The notes under the pieces are model-generated. The model saw nothing but the letters and a program-made list of their open reading frames with translations. It did not search any database and was not told the DNA's origin. DNA of 64,000 bases from Dictyostelium discoideum (Eukaryota), in NCBI GenBank assembly GCA_000004695.1, contig CM000155.2, positions 288,001 to 352,000 of the forward strand, given 5' to 3'. This document shows, piece after piece, positions 836-35,524 of this stretch (the first letter of the stretch is position 1; each line of letters begins with the position of its first letter). The translations under genes were made by a program, and so were the position numbers.

Positions 836-838
<3 letters not shown>

Positions 839-870
<32 letters not shown>
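839..870. repeat. (CA)n dinucleotide microsatellite, ~16 units
   Basis: Directly visible run cacacac... in the AT-rich 5' flank of the first gene. Confidence 0.9.
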
Positions 871-1087: not shown

Positions 1088-3199
1088 ATGTCTTCGAATG
1101 TTTTAAATAATCATTCTATTTTAAATTCACATACATCATCATCGCAAACATCATCTGTCTCACCGTCATTATCCAGTGTCAATAGCAACAACAACAACAA
1201 CAACGACAACAATAATAATAACTTATTACAGCAACCAACTCACTCCTCATCCTCATCTGATACTGGTGAATTCATAAATAATAGTAATTTTTTAAATAAT
1301 AGTGAAAACAAAATGGCGAATAACAATGGAAATTCTGTTATAACTTCAACTCTAAATGAAAAAGGAGAACCAGAAACAATAACAACAACTACAACAACAA
1401 CTACAACAACAACTAAACGACCTTTAGATGAAATTGATGATAGAAATTTAAAAAAAGTTAAAGAAGATTTTACTACAAACAATAGTAGTAATAATAATAT
1501 CAATAATAATAATAATAATAATATCAATAATAACAACGGTGATAATTACAATAACTACAATAATAATAATAATAATAATAATTACAATAATAACAACTTC
1601 AATAATAACTATAATAACAACTATAATGGCAATAATAGTTTTGACTACAATAATAATAATAATAGTAATGTATATTTTAATAACGACAGGGGTAATAACT
1701 ACAATAATTCCTACAATGATTATAATAATAATAATAATAATAACACCAACACCAACACCAACACCAACACCAACACCAACACCAACACCAACACCAACAC
1801 CAACACCAACACCAACACCAACAACAACAACAGTTTTAATAACAATAATAATAACAATAATAATAATAATTTCAACAATAGCAGCAACTATAATTACGAT
1901 TATAATAACAAACCATATGTAAATAGTAACAACAACAACAACAACAACAACAACAATTTTAATAATAATATCAATAATAATAATAATAATAGAAATAAAT
2001 CACCGCCACCACAATATCAAACACAAATATCGCAACAACAACCAAATAATCAACAACAACAACAATTAAATAATAAAAATGAAAATTTAGAATTAGAAGA
2101 TGAAGATGAAAATTTAATTTTAAATCAAAATAGAAAACCAAAAAAAACAAAAACCATTCATAGATTAATGGATATTTGTTTAGAAGAATTAGTGAAAAAC
2201 ATTGATAAGATTGAAACATTAGAACCATTACCAGATGAACTTTGTCAAAAGATTATACCATTATTTCAGCGTAGAAAGATTCTATCATTAAAGACATTGT
2301 CACTCTTTAGAAATTGTAAACTATCGAGATTAGAACTCTATGGTAAAGAGATAGCAATCAATGACGAATGGTTAAATATAACGAAAGGATTGATGAAATC
2401 GACATTGTCCTCAATAAACATCTCAAAAAACAACTCACTCACAGATCAAGGCATTGCAAGTTTAAGTAGTTTGGCAAAGCTATCATCGTTGGATATTAGC
2501 TATTGTGAAAAGATCGATGGAACAGGTCTTGAACCTTTGGTGGATGCAGGTGTACCCCTTCAAAAGCTACACATGGAGGGTAATAGTTCATTGAATTTGG
2601 TAAAGGTTTTCAATTCACTCTCAAAGTTAAAAACATTAAATTCACTTTGTGTTGGCAATACAAATATCACCGATGATATGTGTAAACCTCTATCACTATT
2701 GACAACACTCACTCATCTCGATGTTGCTAGAAATACACAATTGGGTAATCAAGGTTTAGAATCGATTTCAAAGTGTGTAAATCTAATAGATTTGGATATT
2801 AGTTGTTGCACTAAAATCAATGCATTGGGTATTCGTCATCTAGGCTCACTCTCTAATCTTCAGTCACTCTCGGCAGAGAATTGTGCTATCGATGATGAAT
2901 CTATGAAATATATTGGTACACTAAAAAGTTTAAGTTCCCTATCACTCATCAATAATCCTTTTAGTGATACTGGTGCAAAGAATATTGGTAATCTCACACT
3001 CTTGACAACTTTAGATCTTTCAATGTGTGCAAATATTACAGATGCAGCTTTAGTTCACTTTAAAAATTTAACTCAAATTTCAAAATTAAATTTAAATTTT
3101 TGTGGTAATTTAACTGATAGTGGTGTAACTTCATTAACTGGTGGTTTAGGTCAATTAAAAACACTTGGTATAATTGGTTGTAATAGATTATTAATTAAA

Positions 3200-3277
<78 letters not shown>

Positions 3278-3721
3278 TTATAGATAATAGCTAACTAACT
3301 TTTCTTTATTTTTATTTTATTTTAGTTAAACATAGACCATTAGTTTTATTAGTAGAGGATAATCCATTACAGATTAAAGTAATTTCAAAAGTTATGGAAA
3401 GATATAATTTTGACGTTGAAGTTGCATCAAATGGTCAAATGGCATTAGATATGTTTAAAGCAAATCCAAGATATGAGTTGGTTTTAATGGATATGATCAT
3501 GCCTATAATGGATGGTTTAACAGCTACCATGCTCATAAGAGAATACGAGAGAGAAAGAGGTTTAAAAAGAACTCCTGTCATCATTCAAACTGCTGATTCA
3601 AGAGAAAGTCATAAATTGATTTGTCTTGCTGCAGGTTGTGATGATTTTATGACAAAACCATTAGATAAAAGATTTGTCGATAGAGCTTGGAAATTATTAA
3701 ATGAAGAATTCGATTCAACTG

Positions 3722-3761
<40 letters not shown>

Positions 3762-3921
3762 TAATAGCAATAATAACAATAACAGCAATAATAATAACAA
3801 TAGTAATAATAATAACTATAATAATAATAATAATAGAGAAAATAGTGGAGATAACGTAAATAATAACAGCTCAAATATTAATAATGGTTTTAGCAATATT
3901 AGAGTTAATATTAATGTATAA
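1088..3921 (+). CDS. Cysteine-containing leucine-rich-repeat (F-box/AMN1-type LRR) protein with a C-terminal response-regulator receiver (CheY-like) domain; two exons, 1088..3200 and 3326..3921
   Basis: ATG at 1088. The N-terminus is an N/T-rich low-complexity region with (ACC AAC)n encoding TN repeats. Repeated LxxLxLxxCxxITDxG LRR motifs follow. The first ORF runs into a poly-A tract: donor G|GTAAAAAA at 3201, acceptor TTTTAG at 3324-3325, phase-1 junction giving GTT (Val). Exon 2 encodes LVEDNPLQIKV...VLMDMIMPIMDG...MTKP with all canonical receiver residues (DD, phospho-Asp, T/S, K). Confidence 0.75.
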
Positions 3922-4099
3922 AAATACAAAAAAACCTTTTTTTGAAAAAAAAAAAAAAAAATAAATTAAAAAAAAAGTATAAATACACTTTATAAATCAC
4001 AAATCTTTTAAAAGGATATTTAAATCAAAATCCTATTTATTTGTGAAATTTAACATCAAAAACTATTTTCTTCTTTTTTTTATTTTTAATGGATTTGTT

Positions 4100-5080
4100 T
4101 TATTTTGTACAAATAATATATGAAACTTCAGAACCTATAAATTCACCTTTATTTAAAAGTTCATCAACATGATTTACAATCTATATATATATATATATAT
4201 TTATAATTATGTAAATATTAGAAAAATAATTGGAATAATTGGAATAAAAAAAAAAAAAAAAAAAAACCATTACCAATAATAATAATATTACCTTTGATTT
4301 CCAAAGTAAATATTTCTCTTTATCAAGTGTTTGAATGAATTTTTGTAAACCAGGTGGTGATAGGAATACTTCAGAATATTCTTCACCATTTTGAATTGGT
4401 GAATTAACAAATGAATGACCAGCGAGTACTCTTGAGAAACCAGCATCTAATGCCATTTGACGTAACTTGGTTGTATCGTTTAAATGAAATGATGATCTTT
4501 CTTGTGAACTCATATCAATTCCAATTTCATCGGCTATTTTCTTAACAATTGTAAATTGATTTGAATTTTCAGGTCTACCCCACACTGAAAATGCGGCAAT
4601 ACCACCAACTTCTAATACTCTGTAAGCTTCTTTTAACATTGTTTCTGGTGATGTTACTAAATGTAAACAATAATTACTAAAATAACGATCGAATGAGTTG
4701 TCTGGGAATGGTAGTTTTTCAGCATTACATTGTTGAATTTTGAAATTCTTTTCTGGAATTTCATCACCACCATCACCATTATTGGTCATTCCTAAACATT
4801 GTTTAGTTAATTGAATCATTTCATTTGAAATATCAGTTGATATGAATTTACTTGAATCGTTTTTATATTGTAAACATAATTTTGTACCTGCACCTGGACC
4901 ACATGCAACTTCTAATATAGATTTACAAGAATTTTGAGCACTTCCAAATTGACTTGTAATACCTAAACTGGTAATTAATAAAAATGCAACCGGTGCTGTT
5001 GAACATTCATTATAATGTTGAAAGATTTTACTAAATCCATCCCATTTTTGTTCTAATTCTTCTGATGTAAATACTTTCAT
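4100..5080 (-). CDS. Class I SAM-dependent methyltransferase; two exons, 4302..5080 and 4100..4180
   Basis: ORF 4181..5080 carries motif I LEVACGPGAGT and the post-I acidic residue. Reading the minus strand, the ORF runs into an intron: donor AAG|GTAATATT at 4301-4300, poly-T tract, acceptor ATATATAG at 4182-4181. A phase-0 27-codon terminal exon IVNHVDELLNKGEFIGSEVSYIICTK* follows. Confidence 0.7.
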
Positions 5081-7543: not shown

Positions 7544-7548
<5 letters not shown>

Positions 7549-9610
7549 TAATTTTGTTTTTTCATATTTTAAAAATGATCCAATTAAGGAAAATAATGAA
7601 GATAATGAAGATAATGAAAGTGATAGTTATGAAAGTGACTATGAAGACAATGAAGTTACCGATGATAATAAAAATAAAAATTTACAACAACAACAAAATA
7701 AAATATTTCCAAATTATTTAATAATTTCAATTTTAAATATGATATTAAATTCTGAATATAAAGATGGTATTAAAATTAAACATTTTCCAACAAAGAAAAT
7801 AAATATTTTTCAAAATATATTAAAGATGACATTAGTTTCAAAGAATTTTGAAACAAATATTATACCACATTTGAATTATCCAATTTTTATAATAAAGAAT
7901 TCAAAAGATATGCTTTATATTCAAAAACTAGTTAAAAATGGTATTACTCCAAATTGTAAAAATCCATTTGTAAATATTAATCAATTAAATATTAATTTAC
8001 CAAATGAATATAAATTGACTGAAACGAATCCAACCAATTCAATATTTAAAAAATTATTATTATTTAAAGAGAATTTTAAACTTGAGAAACTTAAAATCTC
8101 AACAGCATTAGTACCAAATGATATGGATTGTGAAGTTCCTTCGATTTTAGTTGAATTTATAATTAAACATCAAATTAAAGAATTGGAATTACATAATTTA
8201 CCAGCAATTAAAAACCCAAATTTTACAGAGAATAAACCAATTTTAAATTATTCATTTCTTTCAAACAGAATTGAGCTATGTAATATTCAACATTTATGCT
8301 TAAAGAATCAATTGTTGTCATGTGATAGAGTGATGGATTTTTTAGAACTAATTCCAAGATTATCAAGTTTAGATTTAACAAATAATAGAATTGGTTTAGA
8401 TTATAGAGAGTGCTTTACAAATGCAATTGGAAAGGCAAATCAATTATCAAGTTTAAAGCTATCTTCAAATATTTTAAAAGATAATATATTACAATTATTA
8501 CCAATTTTAAAATCAAATTGTTATCAATTAACTACATTAGATCTTAGTGAAAATTATATAACTGATGAATCAAGTAAATCAATTGAAGAATTTATTCAAT
8601 TTAATAAAACAATTGAATCTTTAAATTTATCTGGTAATTCATTCACTGAATTAGGTGTTAATTTAATTTTTAGTTCATTAATTCAAAATGAAACACTAAC
8701 AGATTTAACATTATCAAATTTTCAAAATTTTAATACAACTTTATTCTCTGAATATTTATCAAGTAGAAATAGTAATAATTTAAAATCATTAAATTTATCA
8801 AATAGTAAAATTTTATGTTCATCAAATTTAATTTTTCAATCATTATCATCGCCATCATTAAAATATTTAGATTTAAGTTATTGTTTAATTAATGATGATT
8901 CACAAATTAATTCATTATCACAATATTTTAATTCAAATGAAAATTGTAAATTAGAGAAATTAAAATTATTGAATTCTTTTAAAGAAAGTGTACCATGTAA
9001 ATTATTATTTTCAAATTTATCTCAATCAATTACAGATTTAGATTTATCATTAAATTATTTAGATAATGAAAGTTCAATTGAGCTATCAACAATTTTAGAA
9101 ACAAATAAATCAATTAGATCTTTAAATTTAACTTGCACAGTCTTTAGAAATCTAGGTTCACTATTTAATGCTTTAAAGCTTAATAATACTTTATTATATT
9201 TAAATTTATCAAGAAATTCAATTAAGTTAAAAGATATTATTGATTTTCAATTCTTACTTGTTAATAATTCATTGATATCTTTAAACCTATCAAATAATGC
9301 TATTGAAACAAATGAAATGCTTCAATTTTTTAAACACCTCTCTAAAAATAGATCAATTAAATATTTAGATATTTCAAATAATCCTACAAATGGTGATATT
9401 AGATTTCCAAGTTTTAAAAGAAGAAATCAAAGATTATCTTTGGATATTAAAGTTTCAAACTTTTTAAAAAATAATCCATATTTAACAAAAATAACAAATA
9501 ATATTAAAATTGATAAAAATAAACCATATTCAATAACAAAATATGATTCTTATACTTCTGATTTTTTTGCTTTTCAACAAAAGAAACCAACGAAAAGAGC
9601 TGCTTATTAA
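7544..9610 (+). CDS. F-box-like / RNI-type leucine-rich repeat protein
   Basis: Single 688-aa ORF from ATG. The acidic N-terminus is followed by an F-box-like segment (IFPNYLIISILNMIL). It then has >10 LxxLxLSxNxI(T/S)D ribonuclease-inhibitor-type LRRs (LDLSENYITDESSKSIEEF..., LNLSGNSFTELG...). Confidence 0.7.
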
Positions 9611-22824: not shown

Positions 22825-22905
22825 TGATAAAGGCGAGATTCGAACTCGCGAAGCCGAAGCATAAGAACTTGAGTCTTACCCATTTGACCACTCTGGTACT
22901 TTACC
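22825..22905 (-). tRNA. tRNA-Leu (anticodon CAA), type II with long variable arm
   Basis: Manual fold of the minus strand. Acceptor GGTAAAG/CTTTATC (one G-U pair), 3-bp D stem CCA/TGG, D loop GAGTGGTCAAA. Anticodon stem TAAGA/TCTTA with loop CTCAAGT, variable arm TGC-TTCG-GCTTC, T arm GCGAG-TTCGAAT-CTCGC, discriminator A. 81 nt. Confidence 0.85.
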
Positions 22906-35422: not shown

Positions 35423-35494
35423 TCCTCATTGGTGTAGTCGGTAACACTCTAGTCTTTCACACTGGTACCTCGGGTTCGATTCCCGAATGGGGAG
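35423..35494 (+). tRNA. tRNA-Glu (anticodon TTC)
   Basis: Fold: acceptor TCCTCAT/ATGGGGA, D arm GTGT-AGTCGGTA-ACAC, anticodon stem CTAGT/ACTGG with loop CTTTCAC, variable TACC, T arm TCGGG-TTCGATT-CCCGA, discriminator G. 72 nt. Confidence 0.9.
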
Positions 35495-35524
35495 CTTTTT
35501 AAAAAATATATTTGGTAGATCACT

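What the first reader, a model, noticed from the sequence alone, without database searches (positions are those of the whole stretch)
1088..3921. F-box-type cysteine-containing LRR array fused to a two-component receiver domain
The N-terminal 3/4 of the protein is an AMN1/FBXL-style LRR solenoid (LxxLxLxxCxxITDxG). Across one canonical phase-matched GT..AG intron the last exon encodes a complete CheY-like receiver with every catalytic residue (EDN acidic pair, VLMDM phospho-acceptor, T/S, K). Receiver domains are normally attached to histidine kinases, PDEs or DNA-binding outputs; I am not aware of an LRR scaffold output. If real, phospho-relay could gate a protein-protein interaction or ubiquitin-ligase adaptor.
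Basis: partly seen in the sequence, partly recalled or inferred. Interest (0 to 1): 0.6.

Follow-up and report, generated by a model that had tools for sequence, protein, structure and literature searches.

The report
Leucine-rich-repeat response regulator of slime moulds
This is a real, two-exon gene of a social amoeba that joins a protein-binding leucine-rich-repeat scaffold to a complete bacterial-type phospho-receiver domain; it is conserved across slime moulds and is an unstudied candidate for a second output of a signalling relay usually said to end only in the enzyme RegA.

Summary
Observation confirmed. Window 1088..3200 plus 3326..3921, joined across a 125-nt GT..AG phase-1 intron, encodes a 902-aa protein. 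Its parts are a low-complexity N-terminus, a three-helix cap, 12 cysteine-containing (FBXL-type) LRRs, and a receiver (Pfam Response_reg E=9e-23) with every catalytic residue.

The fusion is genuine. The same architecture occurs in Acytostelium (two copies), Cavenderia, Ceratiomyxa and several transcript-like contigs. The intron sits in the same Val codon and phase in four genomes.

There is no F-box. The cap instead matches the N-terminal cap of Rad7/Rhp7 proteins, in register with Rad7 L168/C172. That is the SOCS/BC-box needed for Rad7's Elongin C–Cul3 ligase activity; Rad7 was co-crystallised with Elongin C (5ZB2).

Best reading: a phosphorelay-gated LRR adaptor, possibly a cullin-ligase substrate receptor. 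The fusion is shown; the mechanism is inferred.

It is not unprecedented. Extra Dictyostelium receiver proteins were counted in 2006, and LRR-bearing response regulators were noted in Physarum in 2015. None has been characterised. I could not verify Elongin C in dictyostelids.

Verdict: new variant of a known kind, moderate interest (0.55).

The parts
1088..2155 (+). Start codon and low-complexity N-terminal region (aa 1-356; poly-Asn, poly-Thr, (Thr-Asn)n). It holds a short conserved basic/acidic motif, KRPLDEIDDRNLKKVK (aa 110-125, nt 1415-1462).
   Evidence: No Pfam family at E<=0.01. The motif recurs as KRKLDDEDK / KRKHDYFVDEQ / RQKRRKSHVFGEEQDD in Acytostelium and Cavenderia. Non-dictyostelid members lack this region and start at the cap.
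2156..2314 (+). Three-helix N-terminal cap (aa 357-409), IHRLMDICLEELVKNIDKIETLEPLPDELCQKIIPLFQRRKILSLKTLSLF. L360 and C364 are invariant in the eight aligned family caps and form an LxxxCxxx[LV] BC-box-like motif, followed by LPDELCQKI.
   Evidence: The AF2 model has helices at core residues 2-14, 27-39 and 45-51, pLDDT 81-88. The cap-only profile finds Rad7/Rhp7-family proteins at whole-library E 2e-5 to 5e-4. The register is rLidlClevvvkNI = Rad7 SLQSLCITKISENI. There is no F-box.
2315..3187 (+). Twelve cysteine-containing (FBXL-type) leucine-rich repeats, aa 410-700.
3188..3200 (+). End of exon 1: the highly conserved C-terminal edge of the solenoid (..NRLLIK) and the first base of the Val705 codon.
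   Evidence: GIIGCNRLLI is 93-100% identical to the window in the other dictyostelid members (Cavenderia model 86%), and 45-80% in the non-dictyostelid members.
3201..3325 (+). Intron: 125 nt, GT..AG, phase 1, 7% GC, exactly at the LRR/receiver boundary.
   Evidence: The same position and phase are found in Acytostelium L001 (65 nt), Cavenderia L002 (~130 nt) and the non-dictyostelid genomic contig L005 (239 nt).
3326..3339 (+). Short linker (VKHRP) leading into strand beta-1 of the receiver.
   Evidence: pLDDT is below 50 for core residues 345-350, although the sequence is conserved.
3340..3714 (+). CheY-like receiver domain, aa 710-834. Acidic pair E715/D716; phospho-acceptor D760 (nt 3490-3492); T793; F812; K815.
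3715..3921 (+). Poly-Asn C-terminal tail (aa 835-902) and the TAA stop (3919-3921).
   Evidence: The tail has no aligned counterpart in the other family members; the two Acytostelium paralogues carry their own unrelated low-complexity tails.

Best explanation
This is one gene for an atypical eukaryotic response regulator. Its parts are a Rad7-like three-helix cap, a 12-repeat FBXL-type LRR solenoid, and a C-terminal CheY-like receiver that should accept a phosphoryl group on D760.

Shown:
- The fused architecture, and its conservation across Dictyostelia, Ceratiomyxa and related uncultured or unnamed amoebozoan-like sequences.
- An ancient phase-1 intron at the domain boundary.
- Full conservation of the phospho-acceptor chemistry and of the T/F switch pair.

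Inferred:
- The receiver is fed by the His-Asp relay (hybrid histidine kinases, then the Hpt protein RdeA).
- Phosphorylation of D760 flips the alpha4-beta5-alpha5 face. This changes what the adjoining LRR solenoid can bind, either by releasing an intramolecular block or by dimerisation. The protein would therefore be a phosphorelay-gated adaptor and a RegA-independent output of the relay.
- Most specific inference: the cap is a Rad7-type BC-box that docks an Elongin C-like (Skp1-fold) adaptor and a cullin. Phosphorylation would then gate the recruitment of LRR-bound substrates to a cullin-RING ubiquitin ligase.
For: Gene model and domains.

Conserved architecture: ten homologues have the same domain order, plus Ceratiomyxa P0214. 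Trinity transcripts (P0004, P0214) and uninterrupted 1.6-kb contigs (L003, L004) carry both domains in one ORF.

Intron: identical position and phase in four genomes.

Receiver: catalytic residues invariant. The receiver is more conserved than the LRRs. Its closest structures are hybrid-kinase, Sln1 and Ssk1 receivers that take phosphate from Hpt proteins.

LRR: best matches are the substrate-receptor solenoids FBXL2 and FBXL17.

Cap: the cap-only profile search of 1.84e9 proteins gave 52 hits. Those with a diagnostic extra domain are Rad7/Rhp7 proteins (P0223, P0231, P0238, P0250; one is named 'rad7'). L360/C364 align with Rad7 L168/C172. Mutating those two residues abolishes the Cul3-Elc1-Rad7-Rad16 ligase activity (PMC4551923). 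PDB 5ZB2 holds Rad7 together with Elongin-C.

Against: No experiment or transcript from this organism was available. Phosphotransfer, partners and phenotype are all unknown.

The BC-box fit is imperfect. The first consensus position is Arg in most family members (His-Arg-Leu...) rather than Ser/Thr/Ala/Pro. The Cavenderia ORF has Thr in place of the Cys.

The same cap motif occurs in the axonemal protein DRC5/TCTE1, LRDICVKVV...LPDKYVKRI. DRC5 is not known to me as a ligase subunit, so the cap may be purely structural.

Pergolizzi et al. 2017 (PMC5666861) state that members of the VCB-Cul2/elongin complex are missing in Dictyostelium. The cullin review PMC9108976 lists only Cul1-, Cul3- and Cul4-like cullins and does not mention elongins. 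My search for a dictyostelid Elongin C was uninformative.

The model's inter-domain geometry is uncertain (pTM 0.68, linker pLDDT below 50), so no particular gating mechanism is supported structurally.
Confidence: 0.4

Rival explanations
1. A phosphorelay-regulated LRR scaffold with no link to ubiquitin ligases. The cap is only a structural N-terminal cap of this LRR class. The solenoid binds some other partner, for example a kinase, phosphatase, small GTPase or cytoskeletal or nuclear protein, and binding is switched by phosphorylation of D760.
Confidence: 0.38
2. A phosphate sink or competitor. The receiver's main role is to drain or buffer phosphoryl groups from RdeA, as extra receivers do in some bacterial chemotaxis systems. 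The LRR merely localises it, so the protein modulates RegA activity rather than having an output of its own.
For: The receiver is the most conserved part of the protein. It resembles the receivers of hybrid kinases. All characterised Dictyostelium kinases act through RegA (PMC3783435).
Against: The cap, the LRRs and especially the LRR-receiver junction are also conserved over the whole family. The conserved T793/F812 switch pair suggests that a conformational output is maintained.
Confidence: 0.12
3. A cryptic SCF subunit. The segment LPDELCQKIIPLFQ...LSLF is a degenerate F-box that binds Skp1, making this a true FBXL protein with a receiver appended.
For: The LRRs are FBXL-type and FBXL2/FBXL17 are the best structural matches. 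One family member gives a marginal F-box-like_2 hit (E 0.16) over exactly this segment. LPxEL resembles the start of an F-box (my own knowledge of the F-box consensus).
Against: Four of five members give no F-box hit even at E<=10. The cap-only profile recovered Rad7-type proteins. The single F-box protein among the scanned hits (P0257) matched outside its F-box. The family has an extra conserved helix (LxxxC) upstream that F-boxes lack.
Confidence: 0.07
4. Two separate genes, or a mis-joined model: an LRR protein ending in the A-rich tract and an independent small receiver protein.
For: No transcript evidence for this organism was available. Exon 1 can be read through to a stop at 3274.
Against: The spliced junction peptide GCNRLLIK|VKHRPLVLLVEDN is identical in P0001 and nearly identical in the two Acytostelium proteins. 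Transcript assemblies from other species carry both domains. The intron is in the same place in four genomes. A receiver started at the first exon-2 ATG (3394) would lack beta-1 and the acidic pair.
Confidence: 0.03

Closest known systems
RegA of Dictyostelium (receiver + cAMP phosphodiesterase)
   Same: A non-kinase response regulator of the same organism group. Its receiver is presumably served by the same Hpt protein, RdeA. The literature treats it as the single output of the relay (PMC3783435, PMC1420674).
   Different: RegA's receiver is N-terminal to an enzymatic output. Here the receiver is C-terminal to a non-enzymatic LRR scaffold, and nothing is known of its function.
LRR-bearing response regulators of Physarum polycephalum (Schaap et al. 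2015, PMC4758236)
   Same: The same domain combination (receiver + LRRs) in a related amoebozoan, and very probably the same family. P0005/P0007 and P0006/P0008 form two paralogue pairs of non-dictyostelid origin.
   Different: They are mentioned in one sentence as a domain architecture, with no sequence analysis, cap, intron or function. I could not obtain the Physarum sequences to prove orthology.
Yeast Rad7 (Rad7-Rad16-Elc1-Cul3 GG-NER ubiquitin ligase; PDB 5ZB2)
   Same: An N-terminal cap with an LxxxC BC/SOCS-box in the same register, followed by cysteine-containing LRRs. The cap profile retrieves Rad7/Rhp7 proteins.
FBXL2 / FBXL17 (F-box/LRR substrate receptors of SCF ligases)
   Same: The best structural matches for the solenoid: the same repeat length and cysteine-containing repeat type.
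   Different: No F-box is detectable. FBXL proteins carry no receiver domain.
Fungal Ssk1/Skn7 and plant type-A/B ARRs (eukaryotic response regulators)
   Different: Their outputs are MAPKKK binding or DNA binding, not an LRR solenoid.
DRC5/TCTE1 (axonemal nexin-dynein regulatory complex LRR protein)
   Same: It shares the cap motif, LRDICVKVVAANF...LPDKYVKRIIDIL.
   Different: It is a structural flagellar protein without a receiver. Dictyostelids have no flagella (my own knowledge).

Membership tests
CheY-like receiver domain (Pfam PF00072, two-component response regulators) | Significant match to the family profile above the curated cut-off | tested here: met
   Response_reg E 9.3e-23, 81 bits against a cut-off of 30.2.
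CheY-like receiver domain (Pfam PF00072, two-component response regulators) | (beta-alpha)5 fold | tested here: met
CheY-like receiver domain (Pfam PF00072, two-component response regulators) | Catalytic quintet: acidic pair after beta-1, phospho-acceptor Asp after beta-3, Thr/Ser after beta-4, Lys after beta-5 | tested here: met
   E715/D716, D760, T793 and K815 are invariant in 11 sequences, except one Ser for the Thr. The switch aromatic F812 is also invariant.
CheY-like receiver domain (Pfam PF00072, two-component response regulators) | Actual phosphotransfer from a histidine kinase or Hpt protein | not testable with these tools
   This needs in vitro phosphotransfer from RdeA~P, or Phos-tag analysis in vivo.
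Hybrid sensor histidine kinase | HisKA and HATPase_c domains in the same polypeptide | tested here: not met
   No such Pfam hits anywhere in the 902-aa product. The precomputed Pfam lists for all ten homologues hold only LRR families and Response_reg.
F-box/LRR (FBXL) proteins | Cysteine-containing LRRs of about 26 aa | tested here: met
F-box/LRR (FBXL) proteins | N-terminal F-box domain (PF00646/PF12937) | tested here: not met
   No F-box family at E<=10 in four of five caps; F-box-like_2 at E 0.16 in one.
F-box/LRR (FBXL) proteins | Binding to Skp1 | not testable with these tools
   This requires pull-down or interactome data.
Rad7/Rhp7 family | Cap with an LxxxC SOCS/BC-box immediately before the LRRs | tested here: met
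   The cap profile hits Rad7/Rhp7 proteins at E 2e-5 to 5e-4 in 1.84e9 proteins. L360/C364 align to Rad7 L168/C172 (PMC4551923).
Rad7/Rhp7 family | Rhp7 treble-clef zinc finger (PF23550) upstream of the cap | tested here: not met
   No Pfam hit in aa 1-356. Non-dictyostelid members begin directly at the cap.
BC-box (Elongin C-binding) substrate receptors | Consensus [STAP]-L-x-x-x-C-x-x-x-[AILV] (consensus quoted from my own knowledge) | tested here: inconclusive
   L, C and the final hydrophobic residue are present in all eight aligned family members. The first position is R in five, S in two and E in one. The Cavenderia ORF has T for C.
BC-box (Elongin C-binding) substrate receptors | Downstream cullin box (for Cul2: phi-P-x-x-phi-x-x-x-phi, from my own knowledge) | tested here: inconclusive
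   LPDELCQKI fits the short pattern and the P is invariant. The pattern carries little information, and Rad7 itself lacks the LP.
BC-box (Elongin C-binding) substrate receptors | An Elongin C partner encoded by the organism | tested here: inconclusive
   The homology search with human Elongin C listed only metazoan hits. The literature is silent or negative (PMC5666861, PMC9108976).

The most novel reading that the evidence does not exclude
His-Asp phosphorelay directly gates a cullin-RING ubiquitin ligase. The receiver domain of this protein, phosphorylated through RdeA, would switch an LRR substrate receptor that is docked by a Rad7-type BC-box to an Elongin C-like adaptor and a cullin. Histidine-kinase signals in slime moulds would then control protein stability through a RegA-independent branch. 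A receiver domain as the regulatory module of a CRL substrate receptor has, to my knowledge, not been described in any organism.
Probability: 0.25. Interest if true: 0.8.

Novelty: new variant of a known kind. Interest (0 to 1): 0.55.

Why it matters
Dictyostelium has about 15 histidine kinases. The field's working statement is that they all converge on a single response regulator, RegA (PMC3783435), although extra receiver proteins were counted long ago and never followed up (PMC1420674).

This gene is a concrete candidate for a RegA-independent output. It is strongly conserved across Dictyostelia, Ceratiomyxa and probably Myxogastria, and its phospho-acceptor chemistry is intact.

The analysis also gives testable handles: D760 for phosphorylation, and L360/C364 for the Rad7-like cap.

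If the cap really recruits an Elongin C/cullin module, it would link two-component signalling to regulated proteolysis in a eukaryote. That would be a new type of response-regulator output. Even if it does not, an LRR scaffold switched by aspartyl phosphorylation would be an unusual output class.

Tried and rejected
1. Looking for the exact protein or its neighbours in public annotation. The 902-aa product and two neighbouring ORFs are not in the collections, so I could not name the organism or the gene. The spliced protein cannot be used in the look-up of encoding contigs.

2. F-box hypothesis for the cap. Rejected on Pfam and on the cap-profile search.

3. ZYG11/ZER1 VHL-box idea. The cap+LRR1 profile (A2) matched ZYG11B only weakly, at internal LRRs (E 0.13, residues 201-291) and not at its N-terminus. 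The LRR_Zer-1 Pfam hit is generic LRR similarity. Dropped in favour of Rad7.

4. A profile search for further LRR+receiver proteins found none beyond the same ten. The exhaustive cap search added Ceratiomyxa P0214 and fragments. No bacterial member was found.

5. Presence of Elongin C in dictyostelids. Three literature searches and my last homology search (all 120 listed hits metazoan) gave no answer.

6. AlphaFold-database search to find a named orthologue. The library was not available.

7. Inter-domain packing could not be read from the model. Only summary data are returned, the linker pLDDT is below 50 and pTM is 0.68.

8. Literature searches for a functional study of an LRR response regulator in Dictyostelium or Amoebozoa found only the one-line Physarum remark.
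Full report
**1. What is in the sequence**

The window is extremely AT-rich, with long poly-Asn coding runs, as in dictyostelid social amoebae.

- An ATG at 1088 opens a reading frame that runs to 3200. There a GT begins a 125-nt stretch of 7% GC (A45, (TA)n) that ends in AG at 3325.
- Exon 1 is 2113 nt long, so the intron is phase 1.
- Joining 3200 to 3326 creates a Val codon (G|TT) and continues the frame to TAA at 3919-3921. The product is 902 aa.
- Unspliced, exon 1 would end in a poly-Lys/(Tyr-Ile)n tail at 3274.
- The first ATG in exon 2 (3394) would give a receiver lacking strand beta-1 and the acidic pair.

**2. Domains**

- *Receiver.* Exon 2 matches Pfam Response_reg at E=9.3e-23 (81 bits; cut-off 30.2). 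Its closest solved relatives are receivers of hybrid kinases (GacS D1, fungal HK3, Sln1) and Ssk1.
- *Catalytic residues.* In full-length numbering the acidic pair is E715/D716, the phospho-acceptor is D760 (VLMDM), followed by T793, the switch aromatic F812 and K815.
- *LRRs.* Residues 410-700 form 12 repeats of 24-28 aa of the cysteine-containing type. They hit several Pfam LRR families.
- *Model.* An AlphaFold2 model built on the family alignment is confident (mean pLDDT 88). It has a three-helix cap, the solenoid, a low-confidence linker and a canonical (beta-alpha)5 receiver.
- *Correction.* The first 356 residues are low complexity with no family hit. The LRR part is therefore about 38% of the protein, not three quarters.

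**3. Is the fusion real?**

No transcript data for this organism were available, but the comparative evidence is strong.

- A homology search returned ten proteins with LRRs followed by a receiver. They are an unnamed EukProt protein at 71% identity, two Acytostelium subglobosum paralogues, Cavenderia fasciculata DFA_07787, a complete Trinity transcript ORF, and five proteins from short environmental or run-assembled contigs.
- The junction peptide GCNRLLIK|VKHRPLVLLVEDN produced by the proposed splice is identical in the closest homologue and nearly so in both Acytostelium proteins.
- Two of the environmental members are uninterrupted ORFs on 1.6-kb contigs with UTR-like flanks.
- A more divergent member, P0214, is a Trinity transcript of Ceratiomyxa fruticulosa.
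- In genomic DNA the intron lies in the same Val codon and the same phase in four genomes: Acytostelium (65 nt), Cavenderia (about 130 nt), a non-dictyostelid genomic contig L005 (239 nt; 36% GC) and the window.

The domain junction and its intron therefore predate the dictyostelid radiation. A phase-1 intron exactly at a domain boundary is what exon shuffling would leave, but that is an inference.

**4. Constraint**

- In the 11-sequence alignment every catalytic residue of the receiver is invariant, except one Thr-to-Ser.
- Identity to the window protein is 56-87% in the receiver, 33-62% in the LRRs and 43-62% in the cap, counting only members that cover the whole cap.
- The GIIGCNRLLI edge of the solenoid is 93-100% identical in the other dictyostelid members (Cavenderia model 86%), and 45-80% in the non-dictyostelid members.
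- A profile search found no further members. This is a small, tight family, seen so far only in Dictyostelia, Ceratiomyxa and unnamed sequences that look like other Amoebozoa.

**5. The N-terminal cap: not an F-box, but Rad7-like**

- *No F-box.* Pfam finds no F-box in five family caps even at E<=10. The one exception is F-box-like_2 at E 0.16.
- *Cap search.* A 63-column cap-only profile was searched against 1.84 billion representative proteins and found only 52 proteins at E<=1e-3. Besides family members, the hits with a diagnostic extra domain carry the Rhp7 treble-clef finger (P0223, P0231, P0238, P0250). One is annotated 'UV-damaged DNA-binding protein rad7'.
- *Register.* Using one of these as a bridge, the solved yeast Rad7 chain reads SSLQSLCITKISENISKW at this place. 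A direct HMM alignment puts the family's rLidlClevvvkNI on Rad7 SLQSLCITKISENI. The family's invariant L360 and C364 therefore correspond to Rad7 L168 and C172.
- *Function in Rad7.* Those are the two residues changed in the 'psocs' mutant, which abolishes the Rad7-Rad16-Elongin C-Cul3 ligase activity (PMC4551923). PDB 5ZB2 contains Rad7 together with Elongin-C (Liu et al. 2019, cited in PMC10454142).
- *Motif quality.* Most distant hits show the canonical [ST]LxxxCxxx[VIL] followed by (L/V)PD.L. Within the LRR-receiver family the first position is usually Arg.

**6. Caveats on the ligase reading**

- The same cap motif occurs in DRC5/TCTE1, a structural axonemal protein, so the motif may be a general cap of this LRR class.
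- A review of Dictyostelium ubiquitination says members of the VCB-Cul2/elongin complex are missing (PMC5666861).
- The cullin review lists Cul1-like CulA/B/E, Cul3-like CulC and Cul4-like CulD, and does not mention elongins (PMC9108976).
- My attempt to find a dictyostelid Elongin C failed for technical reasons: all 120 listed hits were metazoan.
- In yeast, Rad7-Elc1 works with Cul3, and a Cul3-like cullin exists in Dictyostelium. Lack of Cul2 is therefore not fatal, but the partner is unverified.

**7. Mechanism**

*Shown:*
- A conserved single polypeptide of cap, LRR solenoid and receiver.
- Intact phospho-acceptor and switch residues.

*Inferred from established two-component knowledge:*
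- The receiver is phosphorylated on D760 through the kinase-to-RdeA relay.
- The T793/F812 switch then remodels the alpha4-beta5-alpha5 face.
- Because the receiver follows the last LRR after only about 15 conserved residues, this should alter access to, or oligomerisation of, the solenoid.

I rank the readings as follows:
- About 0.40: a phosphorelay-gated adaptor that works in a cullin-ligase context through the Rad7-like cap. The specific 'novel case' wording gets 0.25.
- About 0.38: a phospho-gated scaffold unrelated to ubiquitin.
- About 0.12: a localised phosphate sink that tunes RegA.
- About 0.07: a cryptic F-box protein.
- About 0.03: two separate genes.

**8. What is already known**

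- The field commonly states that Dictyostelium has a single response regulator, RegA (PMC3783435).
- The Physarum genome paper counted five response regulators in D. discoideum and remarked that two Physarum response regulators 'have leucine-rich repeats' (PMC4758236).
- The Cavenderia protein is named 'Response regulatory domain-containing protein' in UniRef.

The domain combination is therefore catalogued but uncharacterised. I found no study of its function. What this analysis adds is the family's extent, the conserved junction intron, the absence of an F-box, and the Rad7-type cap.

**9. Verdict**

- It is a new variant of a known kind: a response regulator with an LRR/adaptor output.
- Interest is moderate (0.55). 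The case is not a new principle on present evidence. It does make an old question directly testable, namely whether the Dictyostelium phosphorelay has outputs other than RegA.

**10. Surroundings**

- The 5' flank (1-1087) is 13% GC intergenic DNA with a (CA)n run.
- The antisense strand of the gene has only low-complexity ORFs.
- Downstream, a convergent SAM-methyltransferase gene ends about 175 nt from the stop codon.

Noticed in passing
window 4094-5080 (minus strand): A convergent class-I SAM methyltransferase gene (Methyltransf_11 E 3e-20). The listed ORF reads through an intron. The probable structure is exon 5080->4293, intron 4292->4181, last exon 4180->about 4094 (..KSK|IVNHVDELLNKGEFIGSEVSYIICTK*). 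Its stop is about 175 nt from the stop of the LRR-receiver gene.
   Followed up: partly
window 7544-9610 (+): A 688-aa ORF encoding another LRR protein, with RNI-like repeats and weak LRR_1/LRR_6 hits. It has a different N-terminus and lacks the Rad7-like cap. It lies only 3.6 kb from the LRR-receiver gene.
   Followed up: partly
window 1415-1462 (aa 110-125): A short basic/acidic motif, KRPLDEIDDRNLKKVK, stands out in the low-complexity N-terminus. It recurs in Acytostelium (KRKLDDEDK, KRKHDYFVDEQ) and Cavenderia (RQKRRKSHVFGEEQDD). It may be a nuclear localisation signal. Non-dictyostelid family members lack the whole N-terminal extension.
   Followed up: no
L002 3001-4550 (Cavenderia fasciculata GL883021.1): The public model DFA_07787 (P0009) splices out the cap and the first LRRs, although this stretch is one continuous ORF that encodes them (VVQKLVDLTFDYIVKNI...). 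The annotation appears wrong. In this ORF the BC-box Cys is a Thr.
   Followed up: partly
L005 606-2512 (Logan SRR30000132 contig): The gene call P0211 is truncated because the LRR/receiver junction intron (1642-1880) was read through. The receiver lies downstream and is split by two more introns (about 2045-2148 and 2257-2404) that dictyostelids lack.
   Followed up: partly
window 838-870 and 1743-1815: A (CA)n microsatellite in the 5' intergenic region, and an (ACCAAC)n tract encoding (Thr-Asn)n inside exon 1. Both are likely to be length-polymorphic.
   Followed up: no
window 22825-22905 (-) and 35423-35495 (+): tRNA-Leu(CAA) and tRNA-Glu(UUC) genes, found by ARAGORN.
   Followed up: no
P0226 (Protostelium nocturnum) and P0252 (ENA contig, 1420 aa, poly-Asn rich): Other amoebozoan-type proteins carry the same Rad7-like cap in front of cysteine-containing LRRs but have no receiver. 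The cap+LRR module therefore exists independently of the receiver in these organisms.
   Followed up: partly
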